A program made the position numbers and the translations under genes. DNA of 32,000 nucleotides from Geotalea uraniireducens Rf4. GTDB taxonomy: Bacteria > Desulfobacterota > Desulfuromonadia > Geobacterales > Geobacteraceae. The notes under the pieces were generated by a model. That model was given only the letters and a program-made list of their open reading frames with translations. It made no database searches and was not told the DNA's origin. Shown here piece by piece: positions 1 to 15,584 of the stretch; within the stretch, counting starts at the first letter, position 1, and each line of letters begins with the position of its first letter. Location: positions 660,001 to 692,000 of the forward strand of contig NC_009483.1 in NCBI RefSeq assembly GCF_000016745.1, in the 5' to 3' direction.

Positions 1-471
1 AACATATGAGGGGCGATCTCCGGAGAAATCGACGAACAGTTTCTCCCCGGCCTTGTGATCGAAGCGCATGACCGGATCTAGTCTCTTGCCGTGCTTCTGG
101 TAAAGTTCGCAGAACTGGCTGCGGCTATAGCCGTCAGGATGGATTGACCGGTATTCTTCCCAGAGAAGTTGAAGGGTTACCCCTTTTTTCTTCATCTCCA
201 GGCGCAGATAATCAAAGTCGGGAAGAGGCTTGCGAGAAGGAGCGCCACGACCTTCGGTGTAGAGACGAGTTTTCAAAGAACTGTCGTCAAGGGCAGAAAT
301 GGCGGCCCAGGCCAAGCCTGATCGTTTGATGCGCTCCAGGTAATCGCCGACGGTCGTGGGAGAAACTGCACAGGCCCGGGCAATGGCCCGCCTGCTCAGG
401 TCGTGCTCAAAATGGAGTCTTAGAATTTCACGTGCTGTTCTCATTGATTTCTTTCTGCCTTTCTTCACCAT
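1..471 (-). CDS. istA: IS21-family transposase IstA, N-terminal 157 codons; the gene runs off the left window edge
   Basis: Not in the supplied ORF track because it is open at the edge. Reverse-strand reading from ATG (complement of 469-471, GGAGG 5 nt upstream) gives MVKKGRKKSMRTAREILRLHFEHDLSRRAIARACAVSPTTVGDYLERIKRSGLAWAAISALDD...LEMKKKGVTLQLLWEEYRSIHPDGYSRSQFCELYQKHGKRLDPVMRFDHKAGEKLFVDFSGDRPSYV with no stop down to position 1. An HTH followed by the LLWEEY and MR..H.AGEK.FVDFSG motifs is typical of IstA. Confidence 0.85.
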   Translation of the reverse strand, partial: MVKKGRKKSMRTAREILRLHFEHDLSRRAIARACAVSPTTVGDYLERIKRSGLAWAAISALDDSSLKTRLYTEGRGAPSRKPLPDFDYLRLEMKKKGVTLQLLWEEYRSIHPDGYSRSQFCELYQKHGKRLDPVMRFDHKAGEKLFVDFSGDRPSYV

Positions 472-533
472 AGCCTCCGGAAAGTTTTTCCGAAGATGGT
501 AGATGATGTGACAGGAAGATGAAAAAAAGTTAG

Positions 534-673
534 TCCGGAAAAGATTGGACACCTATTCCGGAAATCCCGAAAAAGTGTCCAGTTAAAACCGGAATCGGTG
601 TCCATTCAAAACCGGAATGACTGTCCAACCTTTTCCGGAATTGGTGTCCAGTTTATATCGGAATCGGTGTCCA
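534..673. repeat. IS21 multiple terminal repeats (CCGGAAT-N2-3-GTGTCCA units)
   Basis: GTGTCCA at 575-581, 598-604, 644-650 and 667-673; variant CTGTCCA at 621-627; inverted copy TGGACAC at 546-552. Each copy is preceded by a CCGGAA(T)-like block (534-540, 557-563, 589-595, 611-618, 634-641, 657-664). Confidence 0.75.
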
Positions 674-1381
674 GTTTACTCCGGATTTTGCATCCTGCAT
701 ACCTGGACAAGAGCTCTGGAGCACCATCCCCACGTGCATATGCTGGTCCCCGCCGGCGGACTTGATAAAGACGGCCAATGGCGGGAGTCCCGCAAGAAGT
801 ACCTCGTGCCGGTGAAAGCCCTGTCAAAGGGCTTTCGCTACCGGTTCATGAAGATGGCCAGAAAAGCACTTCCCGAGGTGATCTTTCCTGGGCAAGTCTG
901 GGACAAGGAGTGGGTGGTCTTCTGCAAACCGACCTTCAACCGGGCAAAAAAGGTGTTCCATTACCTTGGCAGATACGTCCACCGCATCGCCATTACCAAT
1001 AACCGTATTCTTGCCCTGGATAACGGTCAGGTCGTCTTCCGCTACCAGAATTCCGACACCAGAGAGTGGAAGAATATGCGGCTACCGGTAAAGGAGTTCC
1101 TGCGTCGCTACCTGCAGCACGTCCTGCCGCAGGGGTTTCACAAGGTCCGCTACTACGGACTTTTAAGTCCAGGAAATAGAGTAACCCTGAAACGGTTGCA
1201 GCTCCTGCTTGCAGAGAGAAGAAAGACAAAAGAAGAAAAGAACGAAGAGACTTCTCCGCCACCGGCAGAGCGCCGCTGTCCCTGCTGTGAAGAGGGGACA
1301 ATGGTGATAATCAGCTGGCTGCCGCGTAAAGCGAGAAGCCCGCCGCAAGGAAGGGCACGGACAATAACGACAAAACAGTGA
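674..1381 (+). pseudogene. IS91-family (Y2/HUH rolling-circle) transposase, C-terminal fragment truncated at its 5' side by the IS21 insertion
   Basis: The frame of ORF 617-1381 reads ...GFCILHTWTRALEHHPHVHMLVPAGGL...WVVFCKPTFNRAKKVFHYLGRYVHRIAITNNRILALDNGQVVFRYQ...LQHVLPQGFHKVRYYGLLSPGNR...CPCCEEG. These are the HTW..L..HPH.H, LGRY.HR.AI.N.R and HVLP.GF..VR.YG motifs of Y2_Tnp-type IS91 transposases. The N-terminal half, including the zinc-binding region, is missing. The first residues of the supplied ORF are translated IS21 repeats. Confidence 0.85.
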
Positions 1382-1614
1382 AAAGCAGCGCGGGACAAAA
1401 CCGGCGCAACGCCACAACTGCGCCCGAAGTTGGCAAAAATTGTAAAGTCCGATGGTTAAACAAGGCAGGGAATCAGAGAAATTCTGATAAATGAGACAAT
1501 CAACAACAATTCTTTATTGAATTGCCCTCATAAAACCCGTATTATCCACGCACCCAAAGACAAAAATCGGTATAAAAATCCAGATAGCACGTGCACAGGC
1601 CCGAAGACGGTTTA

Positions 1615-1680
1615 GTCCAACACGACTTTATGCGGCGGCTCCGCTTCGCTACGCACCGCATAAAGTCTTATTCGTTGGAC
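1615..1680 (+). other. integron attC recombination site (attC-1, 66 nt)
   Basis: GTCCAAC (1615-1621) fits the R'' box RYYYAAC. GTTGGAC (1674-1680) fits the R' box GTTRRRY. There is a perfect 12-bp inner stem, GACTTTATGCGG (1624-1635) with CCGCATAAAGTC (1656-1667). The spacers are unequal (2 nt versus 6 nt). The next ORF starts 22 nt downstream. Confidence 0.7.
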
Positions 1681-1701
1681 AAAAAAGGAGGGACTGAAAA
1701 T

Positions 1702-1911
1702 ATGTTAGTTTCAGCTAATTGGGCTGTAAAATTGTGTTACGCCTCTTCGTTGCTTTTTTTGTTACAAGGATGCTGTATGATAACAAAAAATTTAAACAAT
1801 GCCGGTGTTAGCTATCAAGTTATTAGCGAGCCTAAATCTGTAAAACTAGATAGCAAAAAGCTTTACATTCTATATTCTACAAATAGCCATAAACATGAAA
1901 TAAGTTATTTT
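1702..1911 (+). pseudogene. cassette-borne small lipoprotein gene, N-terminal fragment (70 codons), interrupted by ISL3
   Basis: ATG at 1702 with AGGAGGG about 9 nt upstream. MLVSANWAVKLCYASSLLFLLQGCCMITKN has a signal peptide and a lipobox-like LQGC. The reading frame continues exactly into 3262 once the IS and one TSD copy are removed. The sequence is AT-rich. Confidence 0.75.
1904..1911. repeat. ISL3 target-site duplication, left copy (GTTATTTT)
   Basis: Identical 8-mer directly abutting both inverted repeats (1904-1911 and 3254-3261). Confidence 0.9.
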
Positions 1912-1937
1912 GGCTCCTCGACGAATTGAGTGGGTAG
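1912..1937. repeat. ISL3 left inverted repeat
   Basis: See the element entry; it starts with GGCTC, as ISL3-family IRs typically do. Confidence 0.85.
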
Positions 1938-1997
1938 CCTGGGCCGGGTTGATGTAAGATAGGCCACCATCACTCAGCCTGGAGGTTAGTAATCGCT

Positions 1998-3239
1998 ATG
2001 AATCCTGAAGATCTTTTTGGTGCTGCTCTTGGAATTGCCATCCCGTGGAAGGTTACCTCTGTTGACTTCAACAAGAAGTCAAGTCGTTTGGACATAACCA
2101 TCGACTTCCAGCGGGGAGCCACCTTTCCCTGTCCGGTCTGCGGAACGTTGTCACCAGTCCATGACACCACGGAGAAAGAGTGGCGGCATCTGAATTTCTT
2201 CCAGTACGAAGCCTACCTTCATGCGCGTGTTCCACGGGTAAAGTGCCCTAACAGCGACTGCGGCGTGAAGTTGGTCCAGGTACCCTGGGCTCGCGCAGGC
2301 TCAGGATTTACGCTGCTGTTTGAGGCCCTGGCCATGACCATGGCTCGTGATTTGCCGGTGAAGGTCATGAGCAGGCTGTTTGCCGTTACCGATACCCGTC
2401 TATGGCGGTTGATTCAATCCTATGTCGAGAAGACAAGGGCCGCAGAAGACTTCTCCGAGGTGAAGAGGGTCGGTGCGGATGAAACCTTTGCCGGGCGCAG
2501 TCATGACGAGAAATTCGTCACCTTCTTCTTCGACCTCGACATGCATAAGCTCTTGTTCGGCACGACGGGAAAGGACAACGAAACAGTCAAGAGCTTCGTC
2601 GCGGACCTTAAGTCACATGGCGGCGATCCTGATAGCATCACAGACGCTGCTATTGACATGTCCAAGGCATTCATAAAGGGTGTCAAAGAGCAGTTGCCCC
2701 ATGCCGTGGTCACCTTCGATAAATTCCACGTCATCAAGCTTATGAACGATAAGCTTAGTAAGATAAGGGCTCAAGAAGCCAGGTTATTTCCTGAAATCCT
2801 GAAAAAGAGCAGAAACCTGTTCCTCAAAAATCCAGAGAACCTGACACCGGAAGAGGAACAGCGCCTGGATGCCATTATCACCAGTCAAAGCTTAAGGAGT
2901 ACGGAAGCTTACATGCACAAGCTGAACCTTCAGAACGTCTATTTTGCTTCAAGCCGAACGGAGGCAGAAACCCTGTTGACCAAATGGCATCGGAAAGCCG
3001 CCGCAAGCTCAATCCAACTCATCAAGAACATGGCCGAATCTGTAAAAGAGCATTGGGATGGCATTCTGGCACATTTTGAAAGCGGCCTGACTAGCGGCTT
3101 CATTGAGGGCATCAACAGCCTAATTCAATCAGCCAAAACTCGGGCACGAGGCTATCGGAATCCTGACAACTTGATCTGCATGGCTTATCTGGTTGCAGGC
3201 AAGCTCAACCTAAAGTCGCTATTCCCTCTACCCACTTGA
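1998..3239 (+). CDS. ISL3-family transposase (zf-ISL3 + DDE_Tnp_ISL3)
   Basis: 413-aa ORF. The N-terminal zinc-finger region is CPVCG...VKCPNSDCG. It continues with VGADETFAGRSHDEKFVTFFFDL, DAAIDMSKAFIKGV, VTFDKFHVIKLMNDKL and GFIEGINSLIQSAKTRARGYRN, the conserved blocks of ISL3 (IS204/IS1001/IS1096/IS1165-type) transposases. The stop codon lies inside the right IR. Confidence 0.93.
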   Translation: MNPEDLFGAALGIAIPWKVTSVDFNKKSSRLDITIDFQRGATFPCPVCGTLSPVHDTTEKEWRHLNFFQYEAYLHARVPRVKCPNSDCGVKLVQVPWARAGSGFTLLFEALAMTMARDLPVKVMSRLFAVTDTRLWRLIQSYVEKTRAAEDFSEVKRVGADETFAGRSHDEKFVTFFFDLDMHKLLFGTTGKDNETVKSFVADLKSHGGDPDSITDAAIDMSKAFIKGVKEQLPHAVVTFDKFHVIKLMNDKLSKIRAQEARLFPEILKKSRNLFLKNPENLTPEEEQRLDAIITSQSLRSTEAYMHKLNLQNVYFASSRTEAETLLTKWHRKAAASSIQLIKNMAESVKEHWDGILAHFESGLTSGFIEGINSLIQSAKTRARGYRNPDNLICMAYLVAGKLNLKSLFPLPT

Positions 3240-3253
3240 TTCGTTGCAGAGCC
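3228..3253. repeat. ISL3 right inverted repeat
   Basis: CTACCCACTTGATTCGTTGCAGAGCC is the reverse complement partner of 1912-1937. Confidence 0.85.
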
Positions 3254-3831
3254 GTTATTTTGGAGAGTATATAAATAGCACGCCATACCAAAAACATAGC
3301 GGAATCTTGTATACAGTTATAGATCTTGACAAATACACGGTTAAGACAAACTCTGACACTGAGAGAAGTCAATACATTCTCCATTTCATGAAAGAGCAAA
3401 ACATTTCTAAGGCAACTATATTAAGAAAAAGTTATCCATCCCAGGATTATCTTGGCACCACTCCGGGTGATAACAACTGGAATTTGATACCGGGTAGTGT
3501 AGTTAACCTTAATTTGCTTAAAGAAGAGCGTGATATAGAACTTCAAAGAGTTACTGATGTACTTATTTCAAAAACCGAAGCTGCTTCTCCATATTTTTTA
3601 AATTTTATTAGGAGATCAGATTGCCATAATTGTTACGAGATTTACCTAGTAAATAAGGTTAATGCCTCAGAGGTCTATATCATAGATGTACCTCCCATAC
3701 CTGATTATCAAACAGTCAGTTCTCTCTCAGCTTTAAAAATATTTCTTTACCCGTTGACGATTGCGGCTGACATTGGCACATCACCAATACAGTTCGTCTT
3801 GGCTATGAAGGAACTCTCAACGGCTCACTAA
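3254..3831 (+). pseudogene. cassette-borne small lipoprotein gene, C-terminal fragment (begins with the right TSD copy)
   Basis: The frame of ORF 3244-3831 reads ...YFGEYINSTPYQKHSGILYTVIDLDK... The left fragment ends ...HKHEISYF. Joining 1911 to 3262 restores an uninterrupted protein of about 259 aa. I recognise no family. Confidence 0.75.
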
Positions 3832-3875
3832 TACATAATTTCGTAACTTTACAAGCCGTTCCAATTACAATCAGA

Positions 3876-3932
3876 GTCCAACACTTACGACCCGCCCAAA
3901 TAACCGGCGGGTCAAACCCAGGCCCGTTGAAC
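3876..3932 (+). other. integron attC recombination site (attC-2, 57 nt)
   Basis: GTCCAAC (3876-3882) and GTTGAAC (3926-3932) fit RYYYAAC and GTTRRRY. The inner stem is GACCCGCC (3889-3896) with GGCGGGTC (3906-3913). The spacers are unequal (6 versus 12 nt). It lies 44 nt after the stop of the preceding gene and 44 nt before the next start. Confidence 0.7.
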
Positions 3933-3975
3933 GATAAATTTCTGATGACAAACGGCACACAAGGGACTATGATTT

Positions 3976-4266
3976 ATGAAGCCAATTAACTGGAACTCAG
4001 ATAAGAACATGCAACTCAAAGCGGAACGCGGGATATCCTTTGAGGAGGTGCTGGTTGCCGTGTCCCAGGGAGCGATTCTCGATGTTGTCGAACACCCCAA
4101 CAAAGATAAATACCCGAACCAGCGCATAATTATTGTCCGTATTCGCGGTTACGCTTTCTTGGTTTCTTTTGTCGAAACAAATGATGAAATCTTTCTGAAG
4201 ACGATCATTCCAAGCCGAAGCGCCACGAAAAGGTATCTTCCGGAGGAAAACAAAAATGAAAAGTAA
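3976..4266 (+). CDS. brnT: BrnT-family (DUF497/COG2929-like) type II toxin
   Basis: 96 aa. W.SDKN..LKAERGISFEEV at the N-terminus and IFLKTIIPSRSATKRY near the C-terminus match the BrnT pattern (W...K......HG.SF.E.....iRIISAR.AtK.E...Y). It overlaps the downstream antitoxin gene by 11 nt. Confidence 0.75.
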   Translation: MKPINWNSDKNMQLKAERGISFEEVLVAVSQGAILDVVEHPNKDKYPNQRIIIVRIRGYAFLVSFVETNDEIFLKTIIPSRSATKRYLPEENKNEK

Positions 4267-4594
4267 AATAAAAACTGAAGACAAAAAATATGAAGAGGAC
4301 ATTCTCAATTCATTTGAAAAGGGAGAATGGCAATCGGTACCTAACTTGAAGGATGAGCTAGAACGTTATGTATCTAGTGCTGCGGCGACACTTTCAAAAG
4401 ACAAACGAATTAACATTCGCCTTTCTTCTCACGACTTAGAGGATATTCAAATGCGGGCAGCAGAGGAAGGCATGCCCTATCAGACGTTGATTGCTAGCAT
4501 CCTTCATAAGTATGCCAGCGGCCGGCTCGTCGATATTGCATCGCGTCCAACAACGCGCTCAACCGGGCGCGTGAAAAAGCTGCGCGCCGGTTAG
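4256..4594 (+). CDS. CopG/RHH-type antitoxin (COG5304 / BrnA-like) partner of the BrnT-like toxin
   Basis: 112 aa. DILNSFEKGEW...KDKRINIRLSSHDLEDIQMRAAEEGMPYQTLIASILHKYASGRL is the conserved block of the RHH antitoxins paired with DUF497 toxins. The last ~16 codons lie inside attC-3. Confidence 0.75.
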   Translation: MKSKIKTEDKKYEEDILNSFEKGEWQSVPNLKDELERYVSSAAATLSKDKRINIRLSSHDLEDIQMRAAEEGMPYQTLIASILHKYASGRLVDIASRPTTRSTGRVKKLRAG

Positions 4595-4610
4595 CTCACA
4601 ACCGTTGGAC
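4545..4610 (+). other. integron attC recombination site (attC-3, 66 nt)
   Basis: GTCCAAC (4545-4551) and GTTGGAC (4604-4610). The inner stem pairs 4561-4571 (AACCGGGCGCG) with 4582-4592 (GCGCGCCGGTT), giving 10 bp and a single bulged G at 4567. It has the same length and the same end boxes as attC-1, but an unrelated interior. Confidence 0.7.
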
Positions 4611-4628
4611 CAGGAGAATAAACCAAAA

Positions 4629-5042
4629 ATGAAAACAAAAATGGGATACTGTGGCGACGTCTGTGACTATTGCCCTCGATATATTGCAACTCAAAGCGGA
4701 GATAAGAGCAAACTGAAAGAAGTTGCGATCCTATGGTATAAAGCTGTCGCGCGACCGAAGATATTGACACCTGAGGAAATGATATGTCACGGATGCTTTC
4801 CCAACAAAGCATGTCAATTTGGCATTGCACAGTGTGCTTCGGAAAAAGGCGTAAGTCATTGTGGAGAATGTTCTGATTATCCATGTGAAAATCTTAAATC
4901 TAGATTTGATCTTATTCCGTCGATCTCAGAAACATGGAAAAGTATCTGCACAAAAGAAGAATATGAACTCATTCATAAGGCATTTTGGCAAAAGAAAGAG
5001 AACTTGGACAAGGCTCGGGAGGAGTATCTTTCTAGAAAATAA
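4629..5042 (+). CDS. DUF3795 domain-containing Cys-rich protein
   Basis: MKTKMGYCGDVCDYCPRY...CHGCFPNKACQFGIAQCASEKGVSHCGECSDYPCENL has the CG..C..CP ... C.GC ... C ... C ... C..C..YPC spacing of DUF3795. I prefer ATG 4629 (GGAG 12 nt upstream) to the TTG at 4605, which lies inside attC-3. Confidence 0.75.
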   Translation: MKTKMGYCGDVCDYCPRYIATQSGDKSKLKEVAILWYKAVARPKILTPEEMICHGCFPNKACQFGIAQCASEKGVSHCGECSDYPCENLKSRFDLIPSISETWKSICTKEEYELIHKAFWQKKENLDKAREEYLSRK

Positions 5043-5194
5043 GGGAAAATAGAGGGAGGGGCTGCGGGGGCAGGCGTGCAATTATGCAATTTGGTGAAGA
5101 ACCCAGCCAAAAATGAAGGCGTGAGTGGTCTTGGTAAAGGCAAATTCCAAATATTGGTTTGCAACACCTCAAATCTGAAGCAGAGGCAGTCCGT

Positions 5195-6079
5195 ATGAGC
5201 GCAAAAAAAAAGAATTTTCATAAGTTCCGTGCAGAAGGAACTTGAACTGGAGCGGGCCTCCGTGGCTAGTCTCATCGCGACCGATCCCTTCCTTCTTCAA
5301 CACTGCACGCCGGTGCTGTTCGAGAAGGAACCCCCACCTTCGCATCCGGCATCTCGGCCCTACCTTGACTCCCTCCGGGACTGTGCCGTGTATGTGCTGC
5401 TCATAGCCAACGAATACGGCCAGCGGGATGGCGACTTTTCAGCCATGCACTATGAGTATCGTCTCGCCCAGGATTTGCAACTCCCGACCATTATTTTTAT
5501 TAAGGGAGCCACTGACGCTGGCCGGTCAGAAGAAACCAACGAGTTGATCAAAGAGATCAAAAGGGCCGGGCACACCTACAAGCGCTTTCACGACCGCCGC
5601 TCAAGCCCCTTACCTTGGCCAAGCTCCGCCGGGGCGGATACCGTCCCTGTTCGCGTAATCCACTCATTGCCCAGACACTCGCCACTCTCGACAAGATGGA
5701 GCAGCGCGGCAGCGGCTTTGCACGCATGCGCGACGCCATGCTTGACCACGGGCTCAACGAGGCAAAGATTGACCAGCAGGATGGTTTCTTTGTCGTCACG
5801 CTTTCCGGCCCGGATGGCAATTATGACCGGATAAAGACGCCGACCAATATTCCGGCGTTAGTGTCATCGGCGGTGGAGGCACGACTGACTGAACGACAGC
5901 GTCAGATGATGGCGGCACTGGTACAAGGCGAAATTTTAACCAGCAAAATTTGTCAGGAACGCTTTAATGTGTCGGCTCCGGTGATATTTGCCGATTTCCA
6001 GAAGCTTATCGAAGAGGGTTTAGTGGAGCGCATTGGCGCTGGACGGGCCACCCGCTACATTCTCCGGTCCAGGTCATAA
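5195..6079 (+). pseudogene. decayed DUF4062 / HATPase_c_4 / winged-helix protein gene (frameshifted and internally deleted)
   Basis: ATG 5195 is followed by an A9 run (5203-5211). With A8 the reading would be MSAKKRIFISSVQKELELERASVASLI..., the canonical DUF4062 start (FISS.Q.EL..ER). With A9 the ATG is out of frame. The DUF4062 frame (5229-) loses sense near 5590. A second frame (5615-6079) then reads LTLAKLRRGGYRPCSRNPLIAQTLATLDKMEQRGSGFARMRDAMLDHGL...FFVVTL plus a C-terminal HTH (GLVERIGAGRATRYIL). That is the C-terminal end of AlbA_2/HATPase_c_4 regulators. The whole central AlbA_2 part is missing. Confidence 0.7.
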
Positions 6080-6264
6080 TCATAAGGGAATCATTAGGTC
6101 AAATCATGAAATCATTAACCCCGAGCTGAATGGGCACCAATCGGTGGGCAGGTTCAACTTCTAAACATTACCAGAACAGACACCTCTGGGCTTTGATTTT
6201 ATGCTATTCAATTCGTCATCAAGTCTGCAATATTACCTTGCAATTTTGCAATACCGGCGACTAT

Positions 6265-6456
6265 TTGGTCGAGATTCAGGGAGAACGTGTGGGGATTTCT
6301 GGGGACAGCATACTTAATTGGATAATCATGAGACAAAATGTCAATACCAGTCTTTTATCAATCCAGAAATGGGAGATTGGCGAGAAGCACCCCGGCGGTC
6401 CATCCCTGAAACTTCTGAACATCCTTGATCGCAAAGGGATTGAGGCTTTGATTTAA
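6265..6456 (+). CDS. possible small XRE/COG2944-like HTH protein (orphan antitoxin-like); start uncertain, may be a remnant
   Basis: The C-terminal NVNTSLLSIQKWEIGEKHPGGPSLKLLNILDRKGIEAL resembles the ..vs..tvq.WE.G.r.P.G.a.kLL motif of YiaG/HigA-like HTH antitoxins. Only a TTG (6265) or the late ATG 6328 is available as a start, and the RBS is weak. Confidence 0.35.
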   Translation: MVEIQGERVGISGDSILNWIIMRQNVNTSLLSIQKWEIGEKHPGGPSLKLLNILDRKGIEALI

Positions 6457-6525
6457 CGCACACAAAAGCCCGAAAAAGGGGCCATTTCATCATGACCAAC
6501 GCCACGCAATGGCCTTTTACTATGG

Positions 6526-6954
6526 ATGACCATGCCAAAGCAGCCAGAGTTTCCAATTCGCGTATTTTATGACGGCTCATGCTCCGTATGCGCCACGGAG
6601 ATTGAGCACTACCTGCGTGAGGATCACGGCGGCAAGCTCCTGCCAGTAGATATCAGCGCCCGGGACTTTGACCCGGAGCCCTACCACATCCCCCTGGAAG
6701 CATTCATGTACGAGCTGCATGTGATTGATCAGAGCGGCGCGGTTTATCGGGGCGTAGAGGCGTTCTGGGCCATCTGGCAGGCATTCCCGACCTCGACCAT
6801 CTATGGTGTACTGGGGGCTGTCATCCGCATGCCCGTGGTCAAGCCTTTCGCCCGCCTGCTGTACAAGGGATTCGCGCGGGTCCGTCCCTATCTGCCGAAA
6901 AGGACGCACTGCGATGGCGGCTCATGCCGGATCGGCAAGCATGGGAACCCTTGA
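6526..6954 (+). CDS. thiol-disulfide oxidoreductase DCC family protein (DUF393)
   Basis: 142 aa. VFYDGSCSVCATEIEHY carries the DG.C..C motif. The length and downstream pattern (..D......G..Y.G.eA.......P) fit the DCC/YuxK family. Confidence 0.8.
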   Translation: MTMPKQPEFPIRVFYDGSCSVCATEIEHYLREDHGGKLLPVDISARDFDPEPYHIPLEAFMYELHVIDQSGAVYRGVEAFWAIWQAFPTSTIYGVLGAVIRMPVVKPFARLLYKGFARVRPYLPKRTHCDGGSCRIGKHGNP

Positions 6955-6982
6955 ACGAAATGTGCACGATACAGGAGAGACA

Positions 6983-7270
6983 ATGAACATAACCGTAGTT
7001 GCAAAAATAGTAGCCAGGAAGGATGCCGTCGAGGCTGTCAAAGCAGAACTGCTCAAGCTGATCGCGCCGACGAGGAAAGAGAGCGGCTGCATCGAGTACA
7101 AGCTACACCAGGACAATGACGATCCGGCTGTGTTCGTTTTCTACGAAACCTGGGAATCTGCCGCCAGCCTGGGAGAGCACATAAACACAGAACATTACAA
7201 AGCCTACGTTGGCGCAGTCGCCAGCATGATCGAAGGGAAAACTGTCCATAAAATGACCCGGATCGCATAA
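6983..7270 (+). CDS. antibiotic-biosynthesis-monooxygenase (ABM) family protein / putative quinol monooxygenase
   Basis: ATG 6983 with AGGAGAG 6 nt upstream. MNITVVAKIVARKDAVEAVKAELLKLIAPTRKESGCIEYKLHQDNDDPAVFVFYETWESAASLGEHINTEHYKAY is the YgiN/ABM pattern (C..Y.l.qd..dp..f.f.E.W.s...l..H..t.H). The longer track ORF starting at 6803 overlaps the DCC gene and is rejected. Confidence 0.85.
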   Translation: MNITVVAKIVARKDAVEAVKAELLKLIAPTRKESGCIEYKLHQDNDDPAVFVFYETWESAASLGEHINTEHYKAYVGAVASMIEGKTVHKMTRIA

Positions 7271-7300
7271 GGGTGAACCCGGGAAATAATCGAGGTAGGC

Positions 7301-7696
7301 ATGGCAAAAGGTTATAAGGCCAATAAAGAGCGACAGGAAGACATCGGCACCTTCGGCAAAGCCATCGGCAAACGTGCCGGCTTCAAGTGCGAATGGTGCG
7401 AAAGCAAGGAAGATCTGCGGGTCTGGGATCATCAACCCGATCTGCCGCCCGCCATGGAGACGCTTGCCATGCTCTGCCGCCAATGCCGCGAGCTGGCCGA
7501 CGACAGAAAAGCCGATGCCAACGAGCTGCGTTCGATCCGCAACGCCCTCTGGAGCGATATCCCGGCAGTGGCGGAAGGGGCCGCGAAGGTATTGGCCCAG
7601 TGCAAGGAATCCTGGGTGCGTGACGCCATCGAGCAGAGTTTCATTGATGAGAGTCTCAAGGCTGAGCTGCTGGCCCGATCGCAAATCTGGAAATGA
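7301..7696 (+). CDS. PhnA-like zinc-ribbon domain protein (function unknown)
   Basis: 131 aa, GAGG 6 nt upstream of the ATG. CEWCESKEDLRVWD...LCRQCRELADDRK...LRSIRNALWSDIPAVAEGAAKVL resembles the N-terminal module of the longer 'PhnA protein' family (CELC...L.vY.V.P...LC..C..Q......W.CL..SMWS.VPAVQV). This assignment is from memory only. Confidence 0.6.
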   Translation: MAKGYKANKERQEDIGTFGKAIGKRAGFKCEWCESKEDLRVWDHQPDLPPAMETLAMLCRQCRELADDRKADANELRSIRNALWSDIPAVAEGAAKVLAQCKESWVRDAIEQSFIDESLKAELLARSQIWK

Positions 7697-7739
7697 GTCG
7701 CTCCGGTACCCGCAAATATGCCGGCAGAAAATCACACGC

Positions 7740-7761
7740 ACGGGGCGCCGCCCGTTTTATT
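7740..7761 (+). terminator. weak candidate intrinsic terminator between convergent genes
   Basis: ACGGG-GCGCCG-CCCGT stem (5 bp, GC-rich) followed by TTTTATT. It abuts or overlaps the rmuC stop codon (complement of 7757-7759). Confidence 0.35.
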
Positions 7762-9268
7762 CCTCCGATTCAAGCCAGTCCAGGTTGCGGGCTGTTTTGT
7801 CCAGCCCTTCGACGCTCTCGATATCCTTGCCGGTGGACGCACCCAGATCCTTGAATTTGCGGGCGGTCACCAGCACCCTTGTTTCCAACGAGCCTACCGC
7901 CTTGTTGTAGGAATCCACTGCCCGCTCCAGTCCTTTGCGCACGTCGGAAAAATGCCCAGCTAATGTGGCAATCCGGTCGTAGAGGGATTTCCCCAGGTCG
8001 GAAATGGCCTGGGCGTTCTCGGCGATCTGCTCCTGCCGCCAGCCGTAGGCCACCGCCCGGAGCAGGGCTATGAGGGTGGTCGGTGTCGCCAGGATGACTT
8101 TCTGCTCGACGCCGAATTCGATGAGGCTCGGATCCTGCTCCAGAGCGGCGCTGAAGAACGTTTCGCCGGGGAGGAACAGGACCACGAATTCCGGGGTCGG
8201 CCGGAACTGGTCCCAGTAGGATTTTGCGGAGAGCTTCGTCAGGTGGACCCGGATATGGCGGGCATGTTCCTTCAGGTGGCGGAGCCGTTCCTTTTCGTCT
8301 CCGGCTTCAAGAGCCTCCAGGTAAGCCATCAGCGGCGCCTTTGAGTCGACGACGATGTTCTTGCCGTTGGGGAGCTTGATCACCATGTCCGGGCGTAACC
8401 GCCCATCTTCACCGCTGACGGATTCCTGCTCCAGAAAGTCGCAGAAGTTGACCATTCCGGCGATCTCCACCACCCGCTTCAGCTGGATTTCCCCCCAGCG
8501 GCCGCGCACGGTCGGCGTGCGCAACGCCTTAACCAGGTTGGCTGTTTCCCCCTGCAACTGCATCTGGCCGGCGGCCATGGCCTTGATCTGTTCTGTGAGG
8601 CCGACATAGGCGGAGACGCGCGTCTTTTCCAACTCCTGGATCTTGGTGTCGACCTTTTCCAGCGACTCCCGCATCGGCCTGACCAGCTCGTCGATGGCCT
8701 TTTGCCGCAGTTCCAGGTCACCCCTGGCCCCCTCCTGAAACTTTTCCAGGGCTACCTTCGCCAGGTCCAGGAACGACTGGTTGTTGCTCTTCAAAGCCTC
8801 TGCGGAAAGTGCCTTGAACGCATCGGACAGCTTGACGTGGGCAGCATCGAGGATGGCCAGCTTCTCCTCGGTGGCCTTGCGTTCCTCATGGAGCTGGGTG
8901 GCAAGAGAGGAGAGCTTTGCCTTCAGCGCGGAGTTCTCCTCGAACACCTGCCGCATCTGCTCTTCCCTGGTCTTCAGCCGCATTTCCAGCTCCGGTATCC
9001 TGCTGTTTTTCTCTTCTGCTGCCGATCTTTTCTCTGCCTCCGCCTTCAGCTCGCATCTCAGGTCGGAGATTTCTTCTGCCCCTTTTGCCAGCTGCGCTTT
9101 AAGCTCGCCGATCTGCAGATCTTTACCCTGGAGACGTTCGGTCAGTGTCGCAGTCTCTGCCTCCAGTTCGTCCCTCCCTTTCTGATAGGCAAACTCCACC
9201 TTGGATCTGAAGATGAACCAGACGGCAACGGCGACGACTATAGCGGATATAAGCAATACATAGTCCAT
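7757..9268 (-). CDS. rmuC: DNA recombination protein RmuC
   Basis: 503 aa. N-terminal TM helix ([16 protein letters not shown]), a long coiled coil, then the RmuC core ...[30 protein letters not shown]...[28 protein letters not shown]...[23 protein letters not shown] lies 8 nt upstream of the ATG. Confidence 0.92.
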
Positions 9269-9301
9269 GGGCTTTGCTCCTGTTTTTAATGCAAAATACT
9301 G

Positions 9302-10102
9302 CTATTCAATGCCGATCCCCTTCAAAAATTCCAACAGGCAGGCGTTGAACGCCTCCGGCTGCTCCATGTTTGCCATATGCCCCGCACCCGGAATAATGCA
9401 GCTGGTACTTTGGGGCAGGGCGGCGGTGAAGATGCCGACGTTTTCCAGCGGTATTGCCCGGTCTTCCTCCGCGCCGATGACGAGCGCCGGTAGGCGCAGG
9501 TTTCCAAGAAGCGGGGTCGAATCCTTCCTGTCAGCCATGGCGAGTAGCCCCCCGGTTAGCCCAAGCGGGTCTGTGGCCCGCATCCAGCAGGCTACCTGCG
9601 CCGGAAAATCCGGCCTGTTCTTCATCGTTTCATCTGAAAACAGAAGCTTGGCAAAAATATCGGCCACAACCTGCGAGCCGAAGGTTGCGACATCCCGAGC
9701 CATGGCCAGGCGTTTTGCCTTGCCTGCCTCGTCGTCGGCCCCGCTGCGGGTGACGATGAAGCAGGCCGCCGCAATCCGTTGCTGATAGCGTTCGAGCATG
9801 TTGAGCAGTACATAGCCACCCATGGACATGCCTCCGACAACGGCGCGTTCAATGCCGAGGTGGTCAAGAAGGGCGATCATGTCGTCGGCGAAAAGCTCCA
9901 TGGAATAGCCGCTGCCGGGTGCATCGCTTTCACCGAATCCGCGCAGGTCCGGCGCGATGACCCGATAGCCGGCGGCAGCGAGGGCTTCTGCCTGGGGGAG
10001 CCACATGCGGCGGTTGAGGGGGAACCCGTGGATAAGGAGCACGGCCGGCCCCACGCCGTTGTCGTCATAAGCCATGGTAAATCCGTTGATCAGGTCGTTC
10101 AT
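9302..10102 (-). CDS. alpha/beta-fold hydrolase
   Basis: VLLIHGFPLNRRMWLPQAEALAAAGYRVIAPDLRGFGESD, nucleophile elbow GGMSMGGYV, and C-terminal GAGHMANMEQPEAF. I prefer the internal ATG (complement of 10100-10102, MNDLINGFTMAYDD) to the track start at 10159. It is on the same strand as rmuC, 33 nt upstream of it. Confidence 0.85.
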   Translation of the reverse strand: MNDLINGFTMAYDDNGVGPAVLLIHGFPLNRRMWLPQAEALAAAGYRVIAPDLRGFGESDAPGSGYSMELFADDMIALLDHLGIERAVVGGMSMGGYVLLNMLERYQQRIAAACFIVTRSGADDEAGKAKRLAMARDVATFGSQVVADIFAKLLFSDETMKNRPDFPAQVACWMRATDPLGLTGGLLAMADRKDSTPLLGNLRLPALVIGAEEDRAIPLENVGIFTAALPQSTSCIIPGAGHMANMEQPEAFNACLLEFLKGIGIE

Positions 10103-10202
10103 TGGTTGGCACCCCCCGAAAATAGTGTGTGTAAAAATCATCCCCCGTCGCGGCAGCAAACCATAAACGCCCGGCCTGCGCTGTCCTGCGGCGGATGACG
10201 TA

Positions 10203-10509
10203 AAAATGTAGTACGAAGGCCGCCTGCTTGCAGCGGAACAATTATTGCATGGTAATAAAAAAAATATTATTACAGTGCGTTACTTAATTCGGCTTGTGAC
10301 CGTATTTTAATAAAATATTATTATTGTTTGCGGGCGGTCAAGAGAAAAGAATCAAGTCATTTCGCTGCTATGATGACGTGGTTATTACATATTTTCATCA
10401 GGTTTTGCAATGGGCATGTTATGGGCGCGTATGAATCAGCCCGGCCGGAAGTAATAACAATGCTTGTCCTGCGTTTCCGATTTGCGACTTAGTCTACAGG
10501 GGGTGCACC
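10203..10509 (+). promoter_or_regulatory. AT-rich control region upstream of the cytochrome/giant-protein operon (divergent from the hydrolase gene)
   Basis: About 300 bp that are much more AT-rich than the surroundings. Palindrome GTAATAA-N8-TTATTAC (10252-10273). More half-sites: TTATTAC 10382-10388 and GTAATAA 10451-10457. A 12-bp direct repeat AAAATATTATTA sits at 10261-10272 and 10312-10323. A possible sigma70-like TTGTGA (10294-10299)-N16-TATTAT (10316-10321). GGGGGTG lies 6-7 nt before the TTG start. Confidence 0.4.
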
Positions 10510-13500
10510 TTGAGCAATGTTCAGGGGAAAGATAGTTTGACCACACTTAGGCTTTTATTGCTGGTCGCCATGCTCATATGGGCTGGTACGGCGGAAGCTT
10601 CGTTGCAATGCTATGACTGCCATGGCACGAAGAGCAGCGGGGACAACCGGCCGCTGGACGCCGCCTACAGAAACGTCACCACCGGAGGCTTCCAGGGAAC
10701 CCATCGCAACCATCTCCCTCCCAACGCCACCGGATCAAGCTGCGTTCTTTGCCATCCGGGGAGCGACGGCTATGTCCCCGGCCACCGGGACGGATTGATA
10801 CAACTCTCCACCAATATCAAGAATTCACCCGAGCCCGCCGTCTATAATCACTATACGACCCCCTTTCCCCAGACTCCGTCCCCCGAGCTCGGTTCATGTT
10901 CCAATGTCAACTGCCACTTCGAAACAACAACACCCCCTTGGGGGGACGCATCCCTGACCGTTCCCGCCGGATGCAGCGCCTGCCACGGCTTTCCGCCGGA
11001 TGACGGCAATCACCCGGCTATAATCGGCATCGGCAAGAAGCATGGCGACTATTACGGCACCGGCACCGAGAGCTGCGGCACGTGTCACAGCAGCCACAGC
11101 ACCTTTGCCCACGCCACCAGCGCCGGCAATCCCGGCAGAGGGCTGATCCTCGATTTTGCCGCCGCACCCAACAGCGGTGGCGACTACTCCCAGGCAATCA
11201 ATTTAACCTATCCCAACTACCTTCCCAGCCGGAACCCGGTCAGAAACGGTGCCTGCACGAACCTCTACTGCCACAGCGACGGCAAGGAAGGCGCAGCGAA
11301 AACCCAAGCCGTATGGGGCGGAACGCTGGATTGTACCGGCTGCCATAGCGGGGCCGGAGATACCACCGACCTGAGCGGCAGGCACGGCAAGCATACCGGC
11401 CCTTCGGGCTATGCCTTTGCCTGCTCCCGCTGCCATGTGGGAACCGTCGCAACTGTCAATGAACAGAACACCATCACCGATAAAACCCTCCATGTCAACA
11501 AAACCAAAGACGTGGCCTTCACGGAAGGTGGCAATTACAACCAAAGCGATAAAGGGTGCGTCAGTACCTACTGTCACAGCAACGGCGCAGGCGGAGCCCC
11601 GACCGTTGCCGTGAAGTGGACCGACACCGCACCGATGCAATGTTATTCCTGCCACAGGGGGCGGACCGGCGACAGCACCGAAGCCAACTGTACGGGGCAG
11701 CCGATCCTCGGCGTCTGGTCATCGGCCGGGAACGCCTGCACCCCGCCCCTCAACATGACCAGCAACGGCCATGCACGCCTGGTCGGTCCGCAGTGGATCA
11801 GAAAATACCCATGCAGCTATTGTCACAACGATACTGTCGACGGCAGCGGGAACATCAAGGACAGGACGAAACACACCAATGGTGCGAAAGATGTGGCCAT
11901 TTCGCCGCAATGGTCCATTTTGGGGGAAGAGGCGCCGACCTACAATCCGGCCACCAAGTCCTGCGACAACATTTACTGTCATAGCGACGGCACTGCCAAC
12001 CCGGAGAACGTCAGGCCCTTTGCCTGGACTGAGGGGAAGACCGAGTGCAATACTTGCCACGGCCACCCCCGCGGCTCCTGCTCGACGAAAAACTGCCACG
12101 ACAACCGGATCGATTACAACACCGGCAAGGTGTGGAATCTTCCGTCCATATTCGGCAACAACTCTTCGTATCAATGGCCGGCCGGCCAGGAGTGGAAGGC
12201 CGCCATCCCCATGTTCCACAATGAAGGCCCCGGAACGCAACGGGCAAATTCGCACCCCCGCCATACGGAAACCAGCTTCACCTGCGACAAATGCCACGCC
12301 GCCACCATTGCCAACGGCACCTGCGATTCTTGTCACACCAACGGCATCCCCGCCGGCAAAATGGGGGAATATGCCCACATAGACCCGGCCTATCACGTCA
12401 ACAGGACCAAAGATGTGGTGTTCATGGATGGCGGTTCATATAACGCGGTGGCCAAGACCTGTTCCAACACCGCCTGTCATACCGGCGGCACCGATCCAGT
12501 CTGGGGGGGCTCCGTCAACAGCGCCGTCATCTGCCTCAGCTGTCATGGTGTAACCGGGGCGGATATCGATGATTTCGGCTCTTTGGGCAACAGTGCGGAA
12601 ACGAGGATCGGCCAGGAGGCGAAAATCAGTCTGGTCGAGTGGGTGACCACCGGTCACGGCAGGTATTCCACGGCAGGGCGCTATCCCTCATCGGGCAATC
12701 CCGCGGCAAATTTCCCCGGCAATCCTTGCTGGTACTGCCACGACAACACCGTCCTGCATAAGGACACGACCAATCCTTTCAGGCTCCGCCTCCATCCGCA
12801 GTTCGTCCAGCGCTTCGAAAAGGAGTGCGTTTATTGTCACATGGAGCGCAAAAGCGACGGGAGCGAATGCGTGGCCTGCCACGTGGACCAGCCCGAATCC
12901 CTTGCTCCCCAGGCGACCGGCAGCGGTATTCTCTTTAGAAAGAGCGACGGCACGACCGAGGTCAGGTTTTCCGGCCACAGCCATGTCGACAACTGCATTA
13001 CCGGCGCCGCGGGGGGGTGCCACGATTCCGACAACGGTCTGTTCGACAACTTTTCATCCCACAAGGGGCACAACGCCAATGCGGGGGTGTGGAACAGCGA
13101 CCAGAAAAAGGATGTGAAAAATCAGTACCTGATGATGGGTGTTTGCCTCCAGTGCCATGACGATGACAGCGGCGACAAGTGCAACAGCTGCCATAAAATG
13201 GATACCGAGGCAAAAAAGGTCAAATATTCCCTCGGCTTTGACCCGGGCACCGGCTTCATCAAGCCGAAAAAGGCGCGGGCCTCGTCGGTCCACTTCGGCT
13301 ATAAGCATTACAGGGCGTACCAGCAGAACGGCGTCTGGCTGGGGGGCAAGTTCTGCTGGGACTGCCACGATCCCCATGGGGACGGCAACATCTATATGGT
13401 CCAGAGCAAGGTCGCCACATCGACAGAAGGCACCTTCGGCATTCCCCAGACGCGGGCCGATGTGGTCTTCAACAAAAAGCAGAGCGGTCTCGACTATGCC

Positions 13501-15528: not shown

Positions 15529-15584
15529 TAATGAACCGTAAGTTCAGAACCGAGAGACCGAAGAAGCTGACCGGAGGTAAGCCC

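What the first reader, a model, noticed from the sequence alone, without database searches (positions are those of the whole stretch)
1615..5042. Integron-type gene-cassette array (three attC sites) without an integrase in view
Three imperfect palindromes of 57-66 nt sit just 3' of successive short same-strand genes. Each begins with GTCCAAC (fits the attC R'' box RYYYAAC) and ends with GTTGGAC or GTTGAAC (fits the R' box GTTRRRY). They are at 1615-1680, 3876-3932 and 4545-4610.

Each has a GC-rich inner stem: 12 bp perfect, 8 bp, and 10 bp with one bulged G at 4567. Each also has unequal spacers between the outer and inner stems. This is the asymmetric hairpin geometry with extrahelical bases expected of attC.

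Two sites are exactly 66 nt, yet their interiors are unrelated. Conserved ends and structure without conserved sequence is the attC signature. ORFs start 18-44 nt after each site (1702, 3976, 4629), and the antitoxin ORF ends inside attC-3.

The cargo is small and function-poor (lipoprotein, TA pair, DUF3795) and visibly more AT-rich than the flanks. Cassette orientation predicts intI/attI to the left, where IS91 and IS21 have landed. This may therefore be a degraded integron or a CALIN-type array.
Basis: partly seen in the sequence, partly recalled or inferred. Interest (0 to 1): 0.75.

Follow-up and report, generated by a model that had tools for sequence, protein, structure and literature searches.

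The report
Integron cassette array without visible integrase
Three short DNA hairpins between small genes are real integron recombination sites (attC) that mark mobile gene cassettes in Geotalea uraniireducens; this is an ordinary example of a known system, cut off from any integrase by insertion sequences and decaying at both ends.

Summary
The three hairpins at 1615-1680, 3876-3932 and 4545-4610 are the only such elements in the 32 kb window.

A covariance model built only from eight plasmid class 1 integron attC sites recovers two of them, full length, at the exact coordinates and on the + strand (24.9 and 23.4 bits). The best score in 1.22 Mb of control DNA was 18.1 bits. The middle site fails this model (3.3 bits).

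The stronger evidence is comparative. The toxin-antitoxin cassette (3927-4604) and the DUF3795 cassette (from 4605) recur in unrelated contigs at 76-97% nucleotide identity. Homology starts and stops at the G|TT of the R' boxes, with different neighbours each time. That is the integron crossover point.

The host is Geotalea uraniireducens Rf4. The array is eroded:
- ISL3 splits cassette 1.
- IS91 and IS21 replace whatever lay upstream.
- Cassette 3 has lost its own attC.

No integrase gene lies in the window. Whether one lies beyond the IS block or elsewhere in the genome could not be tested. This is a new member of a known kind and of low to moderate interest.

The parts
1..690 (-). End of an IS21-family element. 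It holds the N-terminal part of istA (1-471) and the multiple terminal repeats ('GGTGTCCAGTT', about 590-690). It is inserted into the IS91 element. The right boundary is approximate.
   Evidence: NCBIfam NF033546 transpos_IS21, profile positions 1-126 of 294, E 9e-23. The repeats were read.
690..1614 (+). IS91-family transposase fragment (ORF 617-1381, N-terminal about 137 profile positions missing) with its 3' flank. It abuts attC-1. The exact 3' end of the IS within 1382-1614 was not determined.
   Evidence: Pfam Y2_Tnp E 5e-64. NCBIfam transpos_IS91, profile positions 138-355 of 356.
1615..1680 (+). attC-1. R'' is GTCCAAC, the stem is 12 bp perfect, and R' is GTTGGAC. The inferred crossover is G1674|T1675. 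There are no extrahelical bases. The body of its own cassette is gone, replaced by IS91.
   Evidence: Class 1-derived attC model: 24.9 bits, E 3.8e-4, full length, + strand. DNA fold z = -5.0.
1675..3926 (+). Cassette 1. It carries an orphan lipoprotein-like gene (1702-1929 plus 3244-3831, one ORF of 259 aa once the IS is removed) and ends with attC-2. It is about 901 bp without the IS.
   Evidence: ORFs. Reading frame restored by removing 1911-3253 and one copy of the 8-bp duplication. The only database homologue is Rf4's own fragment WP_041245240.1. No Pfam match.
1911..3253 (+). ISL3-family insertion sequence (1343 bp, transposase 1998-3239). Imperfect terminal inverted repeats at 1911-1933 and 3231-3253. 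The 8-bp target duplication GTTATTTT is at 1903-1910 and 3254-3261.
   Evidence: Pfam DDE_Tnp_ISL3 E 1e-67. NCBIfam transpos_ISL3, full length. Repeats read. Logan contigs of the same strain break at 3225.
3876..3932 (+). attC-2, atypical. R'' is GTCCAAC, the stem is 8 bp GC-rich, the spacers are 6 nt and 12 nt, and R' is GTTGAAC. The crossover is G3926|T3927. R'' is perfectly complementary to G plus TTGGAC, the first bases of its own cassette at 1675-1680.
   Evidence: Pattern and fold. The junction is shared with L089, L090 and L097, which have different upstream attCs. The attC model does NOT support it: 3.3 bits.
3927..4604 (+). Cassette 2 (678 bp). It carries a BrnT-like toxin (3976-4266) and a CopG-like antitoxin (4256-4594), a promoter-like site at 3945-3973, and its own attC-3.
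   Evidence: Pfam BrnT_toxin and CopG_antitoxin, both weak. Nucleotide homology to 9 metagenome contigs is confined to about 3922-4610. Junctions. Promoter scan scored 10 of 12.
4545..4610 (+). attC-3, canonical. R'' is at positions 1-7, followed by a 5-nt spacer. The L'' arm GCT-C-AACCGG-G-CGCG has bulges at C4560 (position 16) and G4567 (position 23). The 3' spacer is 8 nt and R' is GTTGGAC. The crossover is G4604|T4605.
   Evidence: attC model: 23.4 bits, E 9.3e-4, + strand. Eight homologues are conserved up to ...CG and diverge after TT. Position 16 is invariant C and position 23 is G, A or T. These are the same bulge positions as in the aadA2 and aadB attC sites.
4605..5042 (+). Cassette 3, truncated. 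It carries the DUF3795 gene (4629-5042). Its own attC (AACCAAC...GTT.., seen in L084 and L181) is missing. Homology stops at the stop codon.
   Evidence: Pfam DUF3795 E 5e-15. Alignment A1. 96-97% nt identity to L179 and L181 and 88.6% to L084, starting at 4602-4605 behind different attCs (4585 in L181/L182).

Best explanation
This is an integron gene-cassette array in the chromosome of Geotalea (Geobacter) uraniireducens Rf4.

**What the hairpins are**
- The three hairpins are attC sites. Their single-stranded bottom strand folds into the substrate that an integron integrase (IntI) binds and cuts between the G and the TT of the R' box.
- They delimit three cassettes read left to right:
  - an orphan lipoprotein-like gene, now split by an ISL3 element;
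  - a BrnT/CopG-type toxin-antitoxin pair with its own promoter;
  - a DUF3795 gene.

**What is shown**
- The sites have attC sequence and geometry.
- Cassettes 2 and 3 have moved as units between arrays of different bacteria, with breakpoints at G|TT.

**What is inferred**
- An IntI made these joints. None is in the window.
- The array is now largely inert:
  - attI, the cassette promoter Pc and intI are absent, or displaced by the nested IS91/IS21 block on the left;
  - the last cassette lost its attC to a deletion right after its stop codon;
  - cassette 1 is inactivated.
- The toxin-antitoxin cassette probably helps the remnant to persist.
For: **Consensus and structure**
- All three sites carry R'' RYYYAAC and R' GTTRRRY and form hairpins.

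**Independent model**
- The model was built only from eight plasmid class 1 attC sites.
- It finds 1615-1680 (24.9 bits) and 4545-4610 (23.4 bits), full length and on the + strand only. The next hit in the window scores 14 bits.
- In 1.22 Mb of rmuC-region DNA from 80 genomes the best score was 18.1 bits, and that hit is itself attC-like.

**Geometry**
- attC-3 has a 5-nt spacer and bulges at positions 16 (C) and 23, as in the aadA2 and aadB attC sites.

**Cassette junctions**
- Cassette 2 is 76-92% identical to L089, L090, L092-L097 and others over about 3922-4610 only.
- After ...CG|TT every contig continues differently: TTGGAC, TTCGGT, TTGGAT, TTGACA, TTATAA, TTATAC. The upstream attCs differ as well.
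- Cassette 3 is 96-97% identical in a Geobacter MAG (L179) and a Desulfuromonadaceae MAG (L181), and 88.6% identical in L084. Homology starts at 4602-4605 behind a different attC in each (4585 in L181/L182). The one in L084 scores 55.5 bits and is nearly identical to the aadB attC.

**Family context**
- DNA around BrnT homologues gives 51 attC-model hits in 476 kb, almost all on the gene strand.
- IntI genes or fragments lie 1-3 kb from the homologue in L104, L120 and L143.

**Genome context**
- Window 1-7745 is absent from the closest relative, L004, which is 87-89% identical over 7746-19357.
- The region is AT-rich relative to the backbone.
- Integron integrase genes are documented in other Geobacter species (PMC2426708).
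Against: - No intI, attI or Pc is visible. tblastn with IntI1 finds nothing in the window.
- attC-2 scores only 3.3 bits with the model.
- attC-1 and attC-2 have no extrahelical bases and have unusually long 3' spacers (6 and 12 nt), so they may be poor substrates.
- No homologue of cassette 1 exists elsewhere, so its boundaries are untested.
- Covariation in the attC-3 family is not significant: one compensatory pair, 180 of 500 shuffles as high.
- The model is home-made and its calibration is short, so E-values are rough. IntegronFinder's own model was not run.
- Rf4 is not among the intI-bearing Desulfuromonadales listed in the 2008 survey. This is weak evidence, because the survey may not have included Rf4.
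Confidence: 0.9

Rival explanations
1. It is the cassette array of a complete, possibly still active, sedentary chromosomal integron. On this reading intI and attI sit just beyond the IS21/IS91 block to the left of the window, so 'CALIN' would be an artefact of the window edge and of IS insertions.
For: - Cassette orientation points left.
- The left 1.6 kb of the window is only IS DNA, so nothing is known about what lies beyond it.
- Other Geobacter and Geotalea species carry intI.
- The DUF3795 cassette is 96-97% identical in other taxa, so exchange was recent.
Against: - The array shows decay at the other end too: the last attC is lost and cassette 1 is disrupted.
- The Geobacter MAG locus L014 has an attC-like hairpin (18 bits) and a weaker second one between small same-strand genes next to rmuC, with no intI in the 9 kb beyond it that were fetched or elsewhere in the locus.
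- Rf4 is not in the 2008 intI list.
- The left flank could not be fetched, because the genome is absent from the searchable collections.
Confidence: 0.3
2. The hairpins are not integron sites. They would instead be REP-like extragenic palindromes, transcription terminators or IS-related hairpins that happen to fit the loose RYYYAAC/GTTRRRY consensus.
For: - The R boxes are nearly perfect palindromes, so the consensus fits both strands.
- attC-2 fails the model.
- A looser pattern-plus-fold scan also hits coding DNA at roughly one site per 15-20 kb.
- attC-1 abuts an IS91-family element, whose transposase is a Y2 HUH rolling-circle enzyme.
Against: - The model hits are strand-specific and above the 1.22 Mb background.
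- None of the three was called as a + strand terminator, and no T-run follows them.
- Homology breakpoints fall exactly at G|TT in more than 10 independent contexts. Neither REP elements nor terminators predict that.
- Only three copies occur in 32 kb, all in one array.
Confidence: 0.03

Closest known systems
CALIN: cluster of attC sites lacking an integron integrase, as defined for IntegronFinder (Cury et al. 2016, cited from my own knowledge and in PMC11434368)
   Same: - At least two same-strand attC sites lie less than 4 kb apart, with promoterless small cassettes and no intI within reach in the sequence available.
- Cassette content is typical: a toxin-antitoxin pair and small proteins of unknown function.
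   Different: - The label is provisional, because only 1.6 kb, all of it IS DNA, is visible upstream.
- One of the three sites (attC-2) would probably not be called by a covariance model.
Sedentary chromosomal integrons of Desulfuromonadales: intI genes in G. metallireducens, G. lovleyi, G. sulfurreducens, Geobacter sp. FRC-32 and D. acetoxidans (PMC2426708)
   Same: - Same bacterial order.
- The array sits in strain-specific, AT-rich DNA.
- Cassettes are shared at 96-97% identity with other Geobacteraceae and Desulfuromonadaceae genomes.
   Different: - No integrase, attI or Pc is seen here.
- The array is very short (3 cassettes) and is invaded by three IS elements.
attC sites of mobile class 1 integron cassettes (aadA2, aadB, arr-3, aacA4, blaVIM-2 and others)
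   Same: - Same R''/R' consensus, the same 5-nt 5' spacer, and bulged bases at positions 16 and 23 in attC-3.
- Lengths of 57-66 nt fall in the 60-nt class.
- A model trained on these sites finds attC-1 and attC-3.
   Different: - The R box is GTCCAAC/GTTGGAC rather than GYCTAAC/GTTAGRY.
- The 3' spacers are longer: 6, 12 and 8 nt, against 5-6 nt in the eight class 1 attC sites.
- attC-1 and attC-2 lack extrahelical bases.
- The cargo is not antibiotic resistance.
REP/BIME-type extragenic palindromes
   Same: They are short imperfect palindromes lying just 3' of genes.
   Different: - They are not dispersed.
- They are heterogeneous in sequence apart from the 7-nt ends.
- They mark recombination breakpoints.

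Membership tests
Integron attC site | R'' box RYYYAAC at the 5' end and R' box GTTRRRY at the 3' end of the top strand | tested here: met
   All three sites fit: GTCCAAC with GTTGGAC, GTTGAAC and GTTGGAC.
Integron attC site | Imperfect palindrome with L''/L' stem, unpaired central spacer and extrahelical bases on the '' arm | tested here: inconclusive
   - attC-3 meets it fully. It has a 5-nt spacer and bulges at positions 16 (C, giving G on the bottom strand) and 23, as in aadA2 and aadB.
- attC-1 and attC-2 fold but have no extrahelical base. Their asymmetry lies only in the spacers.
Integron attC site | Significant match to an attC covariance model | tested here: inconclusive
   - The test used a home-made model from 8 class 1 attC sites.
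- attC-1 scored 24.9 bits and attC-3 scored 23.4 bits, both above the 18.1-bit maximum in the 1.22 Mb control.
- attC-2 scored 3.3 bits.
- IntegronFinder's own model was not available.
Integron gene cassette | Mobile unit of one ORF (or a few) plus one attC, with recombination breakpoints between G and TT of R' | tested here: met
   - Cassette 2: both ends checked.
- Cassette 3: 5' end checked in four contexts.
- Cassette 1: not testable, because no homologues exist.
CALIN | At least 2 attC sites less than 4 kb apart on one strand with no integron integrase nearby | tested here: inconclusive
   - The spacing criterion is met: the gaps are 2196 and 613 nt.
- No IntI is in the 32 kb window.
- Only 1614 nt are visible upstream of attC-1, all of it IS DNA. 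The remainder of the IS21 and IS91 elements, and whatever lies beyond them, could not be fetched.
Complete integron | intI with the IntI-specific insertion, adjacent attI and Pc promoter | tested here: not met
   - Not met within the window: tblastn with IntI1 finds nothing, and no attI-like repeats lie upstream of attC-1.
- The rest of the Rf4 genome is not testable with these tools. The homologue search listed only IntI1-like proteins.

The most novel reading that the evidence does not exclude
Geobacteraceae might keep integrase-less cassette arrays at a recurrent spot next to rmuC that are still serviced in trans by an IntI encoded elsewhere. Supporting hints are this window and locus L014 of another species. 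In L014 four direct repeats and a GTTGAAC box resembling an attI precede the first cassette, yet no intI is present. On this reading, sites without extrahelical bases (attC-1, attC-2) would reflect a different recognition rule of the Geobacter integrases rather than decay.
Probability: 0.1. Interest if true: 0.45.

Novelty: new member of a known kind. Interest (0 to 1): 0.25.

Why it matters
**For annotation**
- This 3.4 kb of G. uraniireducens Rf4 should be labelled as an IS-eroded integron cassette array, not as anonymous hypothetical genes.

**For integron biology**
- It is a small, clean example of how chromosomal arrays decay, through IS invasion, loss of the terminal attC, and survival of a toxin-antitoxin cassette.
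- It also shows that cassettes (DUF3795, BrnT/CopG) have been exchanged recently among subsurface Geobacteraceae and Desulfuromonadaceae, at 96-97% nucleotide identity.

**Limits**
- It opens no new question. The system, its sites and its mechanism are textbook.

Tried and rejected
- **Rfam.** The gathering-threshold search found nothing in the window. I take this as uninformative, because I know of no attC family there.
- **Left flank.**
  - The genome-contig scan with the 75-aa lipoprotein N-terminus found nothing.
  - Exact look-ups of the 75-aa fragment, the ISL3 transposase and P0028 failed.
  - The Rf4 chromosome is evidently absent from the searchable DNA collections. Only short Logan contigs were found, and they break at the IS.
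- **Searching for an Rf4 IntI.** A profile of IntI1 plus the L104 IntI gave 7963 hits, and the 120 listed were all IntI1-like or unnamed. This search was wasted.
- **Literature.** I found no paper describing an integron or CALIN in Rf4. The supplement of PMC11434368, which ran IntegronFinder on Geobacteraceae, is not held.
- **Covariation.** The test on eight attC-3 homologues was not significant because the sequences are too similar.
- **Strict pattern scan.** The RYYYAAC/GTTRRRY scan with 6 of 7 complementarity missed the attCs in L084. In arrays the last six bases of R' come from the next cassette. Reading the sequence and the model were needed.
- **Region 5043-7745.** I considered that it might hold more cassettes and rejected this. 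The intergenic gaps are 30-70 nt, there are no model hits, and no homologues lie in arrays apart from a 58%-identical ABM protein next to the DUF3795 gene in L179.
- **Terminators.** I rejected this reading. None of the sites is called on the + strand.

Full report
**Observation**

The three elements are in the sequence exactly as described:
- 1615-1680: GTCCAAC...GTTGGAC, 66 nt.
- 3876-3932: GTCCAAC...GTTGAAC, 57 nt.
- 4545-4610: GTCCAAC...GTTGGAC, 66 nt.

A scan of both strands of the 32 kb window for RYYYAAC(N)GTTRRRY returns only these three sites, plus a sub-match nested in the third.

The stems are as stated, with the bulged G at 4567. As single-stranded DNA the + strands fold with z-scores of -5.0, -2.2 and -2.6, and the - strands with -5.4, -2.0 and -3.1.

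Each site lies 3' of a + strand ORF, and the next ORF starts 18-43 nt later. The antitoxin stop codon lies inside the third site. GC is 39-44% across 1501-5000, against 57-64% for most of the window from about 10.5 kb on.

**Gene content**

Pfam and NCBIfam give the following:
- An IS21-family istA N-terminus at 1-471 (- strand), with the family's multiple terminal repeats up to about 690.
- An IS91-family transposase lacking its first ~137 profile positions (ORF 617-1381), so IS21 has landed in IS91.
- A full ISL3-family transposase at 1998-3239.
- A weak BrnT-like toxin at 3976-4266.
- A weak CopG-like antitoxin at 4256-4594.
- A DUF3795 protein at 4629-5042.

The ISL3 element spans 1911-3253. 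It has imperfect terminal inverted repeats and an 8-bp target duplication, GTTATTTT, at 1903-1910 and 3254-3261. Removing it joins ORFs 1702-1929 and 3244-3831 into one 259-aa lipoprotein-like gene.

**Source genome**

- The DUF3795 and RmuC proteins of the window are identical to ABQ24778.1 and ABQ24783.1 of Geotalea (Geobacter) uraniireducens Rf4, which has a 5,136,364-bp chromosome.
- The only homologue of the lipoprotein-like protein in 5.8 billion proteins is Rf4's own fragment, WP_041245240.1.
- The genome itself is not in the searchable DNA collections. Logan contigs from SRR9436595 and SRR9436596 are 100% identical to window 3225-13281 and break at the ISL3 edge.
- The closest available relative is a Geobacter MAG, L004, whose RmuC is 93% identical. 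It is 87-89% identical in DNA over window 7746-19357 and shares nothing with 1-7745. The array therefore sits in strain-specific DNA next to rmuC.

**Model test**

Rfam gave no hit. I therefore built an independent model.
- I fetched class 1 integrons from ten plasmid records. Five of them yielded the eight distinct attC sites used: aadB, aadA2, blaVIM-2, aac(6')-Ib, dfrA5, dfrA27, arr-3 and aac(6')-29a.
- I aligned them and built model R1, imposing only the R and L helices.
- With filters off, R1 finds 1615-1680 (24.9 bits, E 3.8e-4) and 4545-4610 (23.4 bits, E 9.3e-4). Both are full length and on the + strand only. The next hit in the window scores 14 bits.
- Calibration is short, so I rely on an empirical control. 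In 1.22 Mb of rmuC-region DNA from 80 genomes the best score is 18.1 bits, and that hit (L014 12714-12777) is itself an attC-like hairpin between two small genes.
- The middle site scores only 3.3 bits, from its R boxes alone.

**Geometry**

- In attC-3 the top strand reads R'' (positions 1-7), a 5-nt spacer, then GCT-C-AACCGG-G-CGCG pairing with CGCG-CCGGTT-AGC.
- The unpaired bases are at position 16 (C4560, which is G on the bottom strand) and position 23 (G4567).
- The aadA2 and aadB attC sites have their unpaired bases at the same two positions (sequences; model alignment).
- Across eight homologues of attC-3, position 16 is an invariant C and position 23 varies freely among G, A and T, as expected of a bulged base.
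- attC-1 and attC-2 have perfect inner stems with no bulge. Their asymmetry is confined to the spacers: 2 versus 6 nt, and 6 versus 12 nt.
- Covariation in the attC-3 family is not significant.

**Comparative test of the crossover point**

This is the decisive evidence.

A metagenome scan with the toxin returned 80 loci.
- Nucleotide homology between the window and nine of them (L089-L097, excluding the truncated L099 and the weak L098; 75-92% identity) is confined to about 3922-4610.
- At the right end every contig keeps the attC up to ...CG. After TT each continues with unrelated DNA: TTGGAC, TTCGGT, TTGGAT, TTGACA, TTATAA or TTATAC.
- At the left end L089, L090 and L097 share G|TTGAAC with the window, but each is preceded by a different attC.
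- Cassette 2 is therefore 3927-4604.

Homologues of the DUF3795 protein led to further contexts.
- They lie in a JGI metagenome (L084-L086), a Geobacter MAG (L179) and a Desulfuromonadaceae MAG (L181).
- Identity is 88.6% with L084 and 96-97% with L179 and L181. It begins at window 4602-4605 (4585 in L181/L182, whose upstream attC shares part of its 3' arm with attC-3), that is at the TTGGAC of R', behind a different attC in each case.
- The attC in L084 is nearly identical to the aadB attC and scores 55.5 bits.
- In L084 and L181 the cassette continues past its stop codon into its own attC (AACCAAC...GTT..). In the window, homology ends at the stop codon (5042) and unrelated DNA follows. The array has therefore lost its last attC.

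These breakpoints also fix the polarity. The + strand is the top strand, so attI and intI would lie to the left.

There is one internal consistency check. The R'' of attC-2 (GTCCAAC) is the exact complement of G plus TTGGAC, the first six bases of its own cassette at 1675-1680. This is what the circular form of cassette 1 would require.

**Family context**

- DNA around BrnT homologues is rich in attC. Model R1 gives 51 hits with E <= 1 in 476 kb, almost all on the toxin strand.
- IntI genes or fragments lie 1-3 kb from the toxin in L104 (full length, 51% identical to IntI1), L120 and L143.
- The toxin-antitoxin cassette carries the best promoter-like site of the region (ATGACA, 17 nt, TATGAT at 3945-3973). 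This site is conserved in the homologous cassettes.

**What is missing**

- No IntI-like gene is found in the window or in the Geobacteraceae rmuC loci, nor in L179-L182.
- Integron integrases are documented in G. metallireducens, G. lovleyi, G. sulfurreducens, Geobacter sp. FRC-32 and D. acetoxidans. Rf4 is not in that 2008 list (PMC2426708).
- A 2024 study ran IntegronFinder on Geobacteraceae genomes including Rf4, but its tables are not held (PMC11434368).
- My attempt to find an Rf4 IntI by protein search failed for technical reasons.
- Whether this is a CALIN in an integrase-less genome, or the array of an integron whose intI lies beyond the IS block, therefore remains open.

**Mechanism**

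What is established (my own knowledge of integron biology):
- IntI recombines folded bottom-strand attC sites with attI (insertion) or with another attC (excision).
- It cuts between the A and C of the bottom-strand R box, which corresponds to G|TT on the top strand.

What is shown here:
- The sites have that architecture, and cassettes 2 and 3 carry exactly those breakpoints.

What is inferred:
- The array is now largely inert.
- It has no local integrase or Pc promoter.
- Cassette 1 is split by ISL3.
- Upstream DNA has been replaced by nested IS91 and IS21.
- The downstream end has been deleted.
- The toxin-antitoxin cassette probably stabilises what is left, and read-through from it may express the DUF3795 gene.

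**Verdict**

The element is a new member of a well-known kind, and large-scale IntegronFinder surveys have probably already flagged it automatically. Interest is low to moderate. It is a tidy example of integron decay and of recent cassette exchange among subsurface Desulfuromonadales, not a new system.

Noticed in passing
window 1903-3261: A clean, apparently recent ISL3-family insertion (1911-3253) lies inside the cassette 1 gene. It has an 8-bp target duplication, GTTATTTT. Short-read assemblies of the same strain break at its edge (3225).
   Followed up: yes
window 1-1614: Nested IS elements. An IS21-family end, with about five copies of a GGTGTCCAGTT-like terminal repeat, is inserted into an IS91-family transposase gene. 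The IS91 element's 3' flank abuts the R'' box of attC-1. The exact IS91 end within 1382-1614 is undetermined. I did not examine whether IS91-type elements target attC R boxes.
   Followed up: partly
window 5195-6079: - A DUF4062 gene looks degraded.
- Its ATG at 5195 is out of frame with the domain ORF (5229-5834) because of an A9 run at 5203-5211. An A8 run would restore the frame.
- The ORF then runs out of frame into the C-terminal HATPase_c_4 part of a larger protein (5615-6079).
- Logan contigs of the same strain break at 5612-5618, which suggests heterogeneity or a repeat there.
   Followed up: partly
L014 12100-14530 (Geobacter sp. MAG NC_groundwater_76): - Between rodA and rmuC lie three small same-strand genes separated by attC-like hairpins. 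The one at 12714-12777 scores 18 bits. A 103-nt one lies at 13841-13943.
- Upstream of the first gene is a GTTGAAC box preceded by four direct repeats of about GGTYACGTATATAGG (14420-14530, reverse strand). This resembles an attI with integrase-binding repeats.
- No intI lies anywhere in the 20 kb locus.
   Followed up: partly
L084 789-848 (JGI metagenome 3300027566): An environmental cassette array carries an attC that differs at only about 7 of 60 positions from the aadB attC of clinical class 1 integrons (55.5 bits). It lies directly upstream of the DUF3795 cassette shared with this window. The R' reads ATTGGAT, with A in place of the usual G.
   Followed up: partly
L096 603-800: In one homologue of the toxin-antitoxin cassette, the attC is followed after ...CACG by about 130 nt of highly self-complementary GC-rich DNA rather than by TT. 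That stretch ends in GTTAGAC. It may be a small insertion into, or a fusion with, a second attC.
   Followed up: no
L179 5446-10417 (same MAG as L014): The 95-97% identical DUF3795 cassette sits behind a 102-nt attC (19.3 bits). Genes for a group II intron reverse transcriptase, a methyltransferase, a PIN_4 protein and an ABM protein lie upstream on the same strand. There the DUF3795 gene is truncated at a different point: homology ends at window 5032.
   Followed up: partly
window 10510-28832: Two very large + strand ORFs (1672 aa and 4460 aa) fill most of the rest of the window. Part of this region is shared with the relative L004. I did not examine them.
   Followed up: no
window 3945-3976: The promoter-like site of the toxin-antitoxin cassette ends 2 nt before the toxin ATG. 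This implies a leaderless or near-leaderless transcript. The motif TGATGACAAANGGCACAC...TATGAT is conserved across homologous cassettes.
   Followed up: partly
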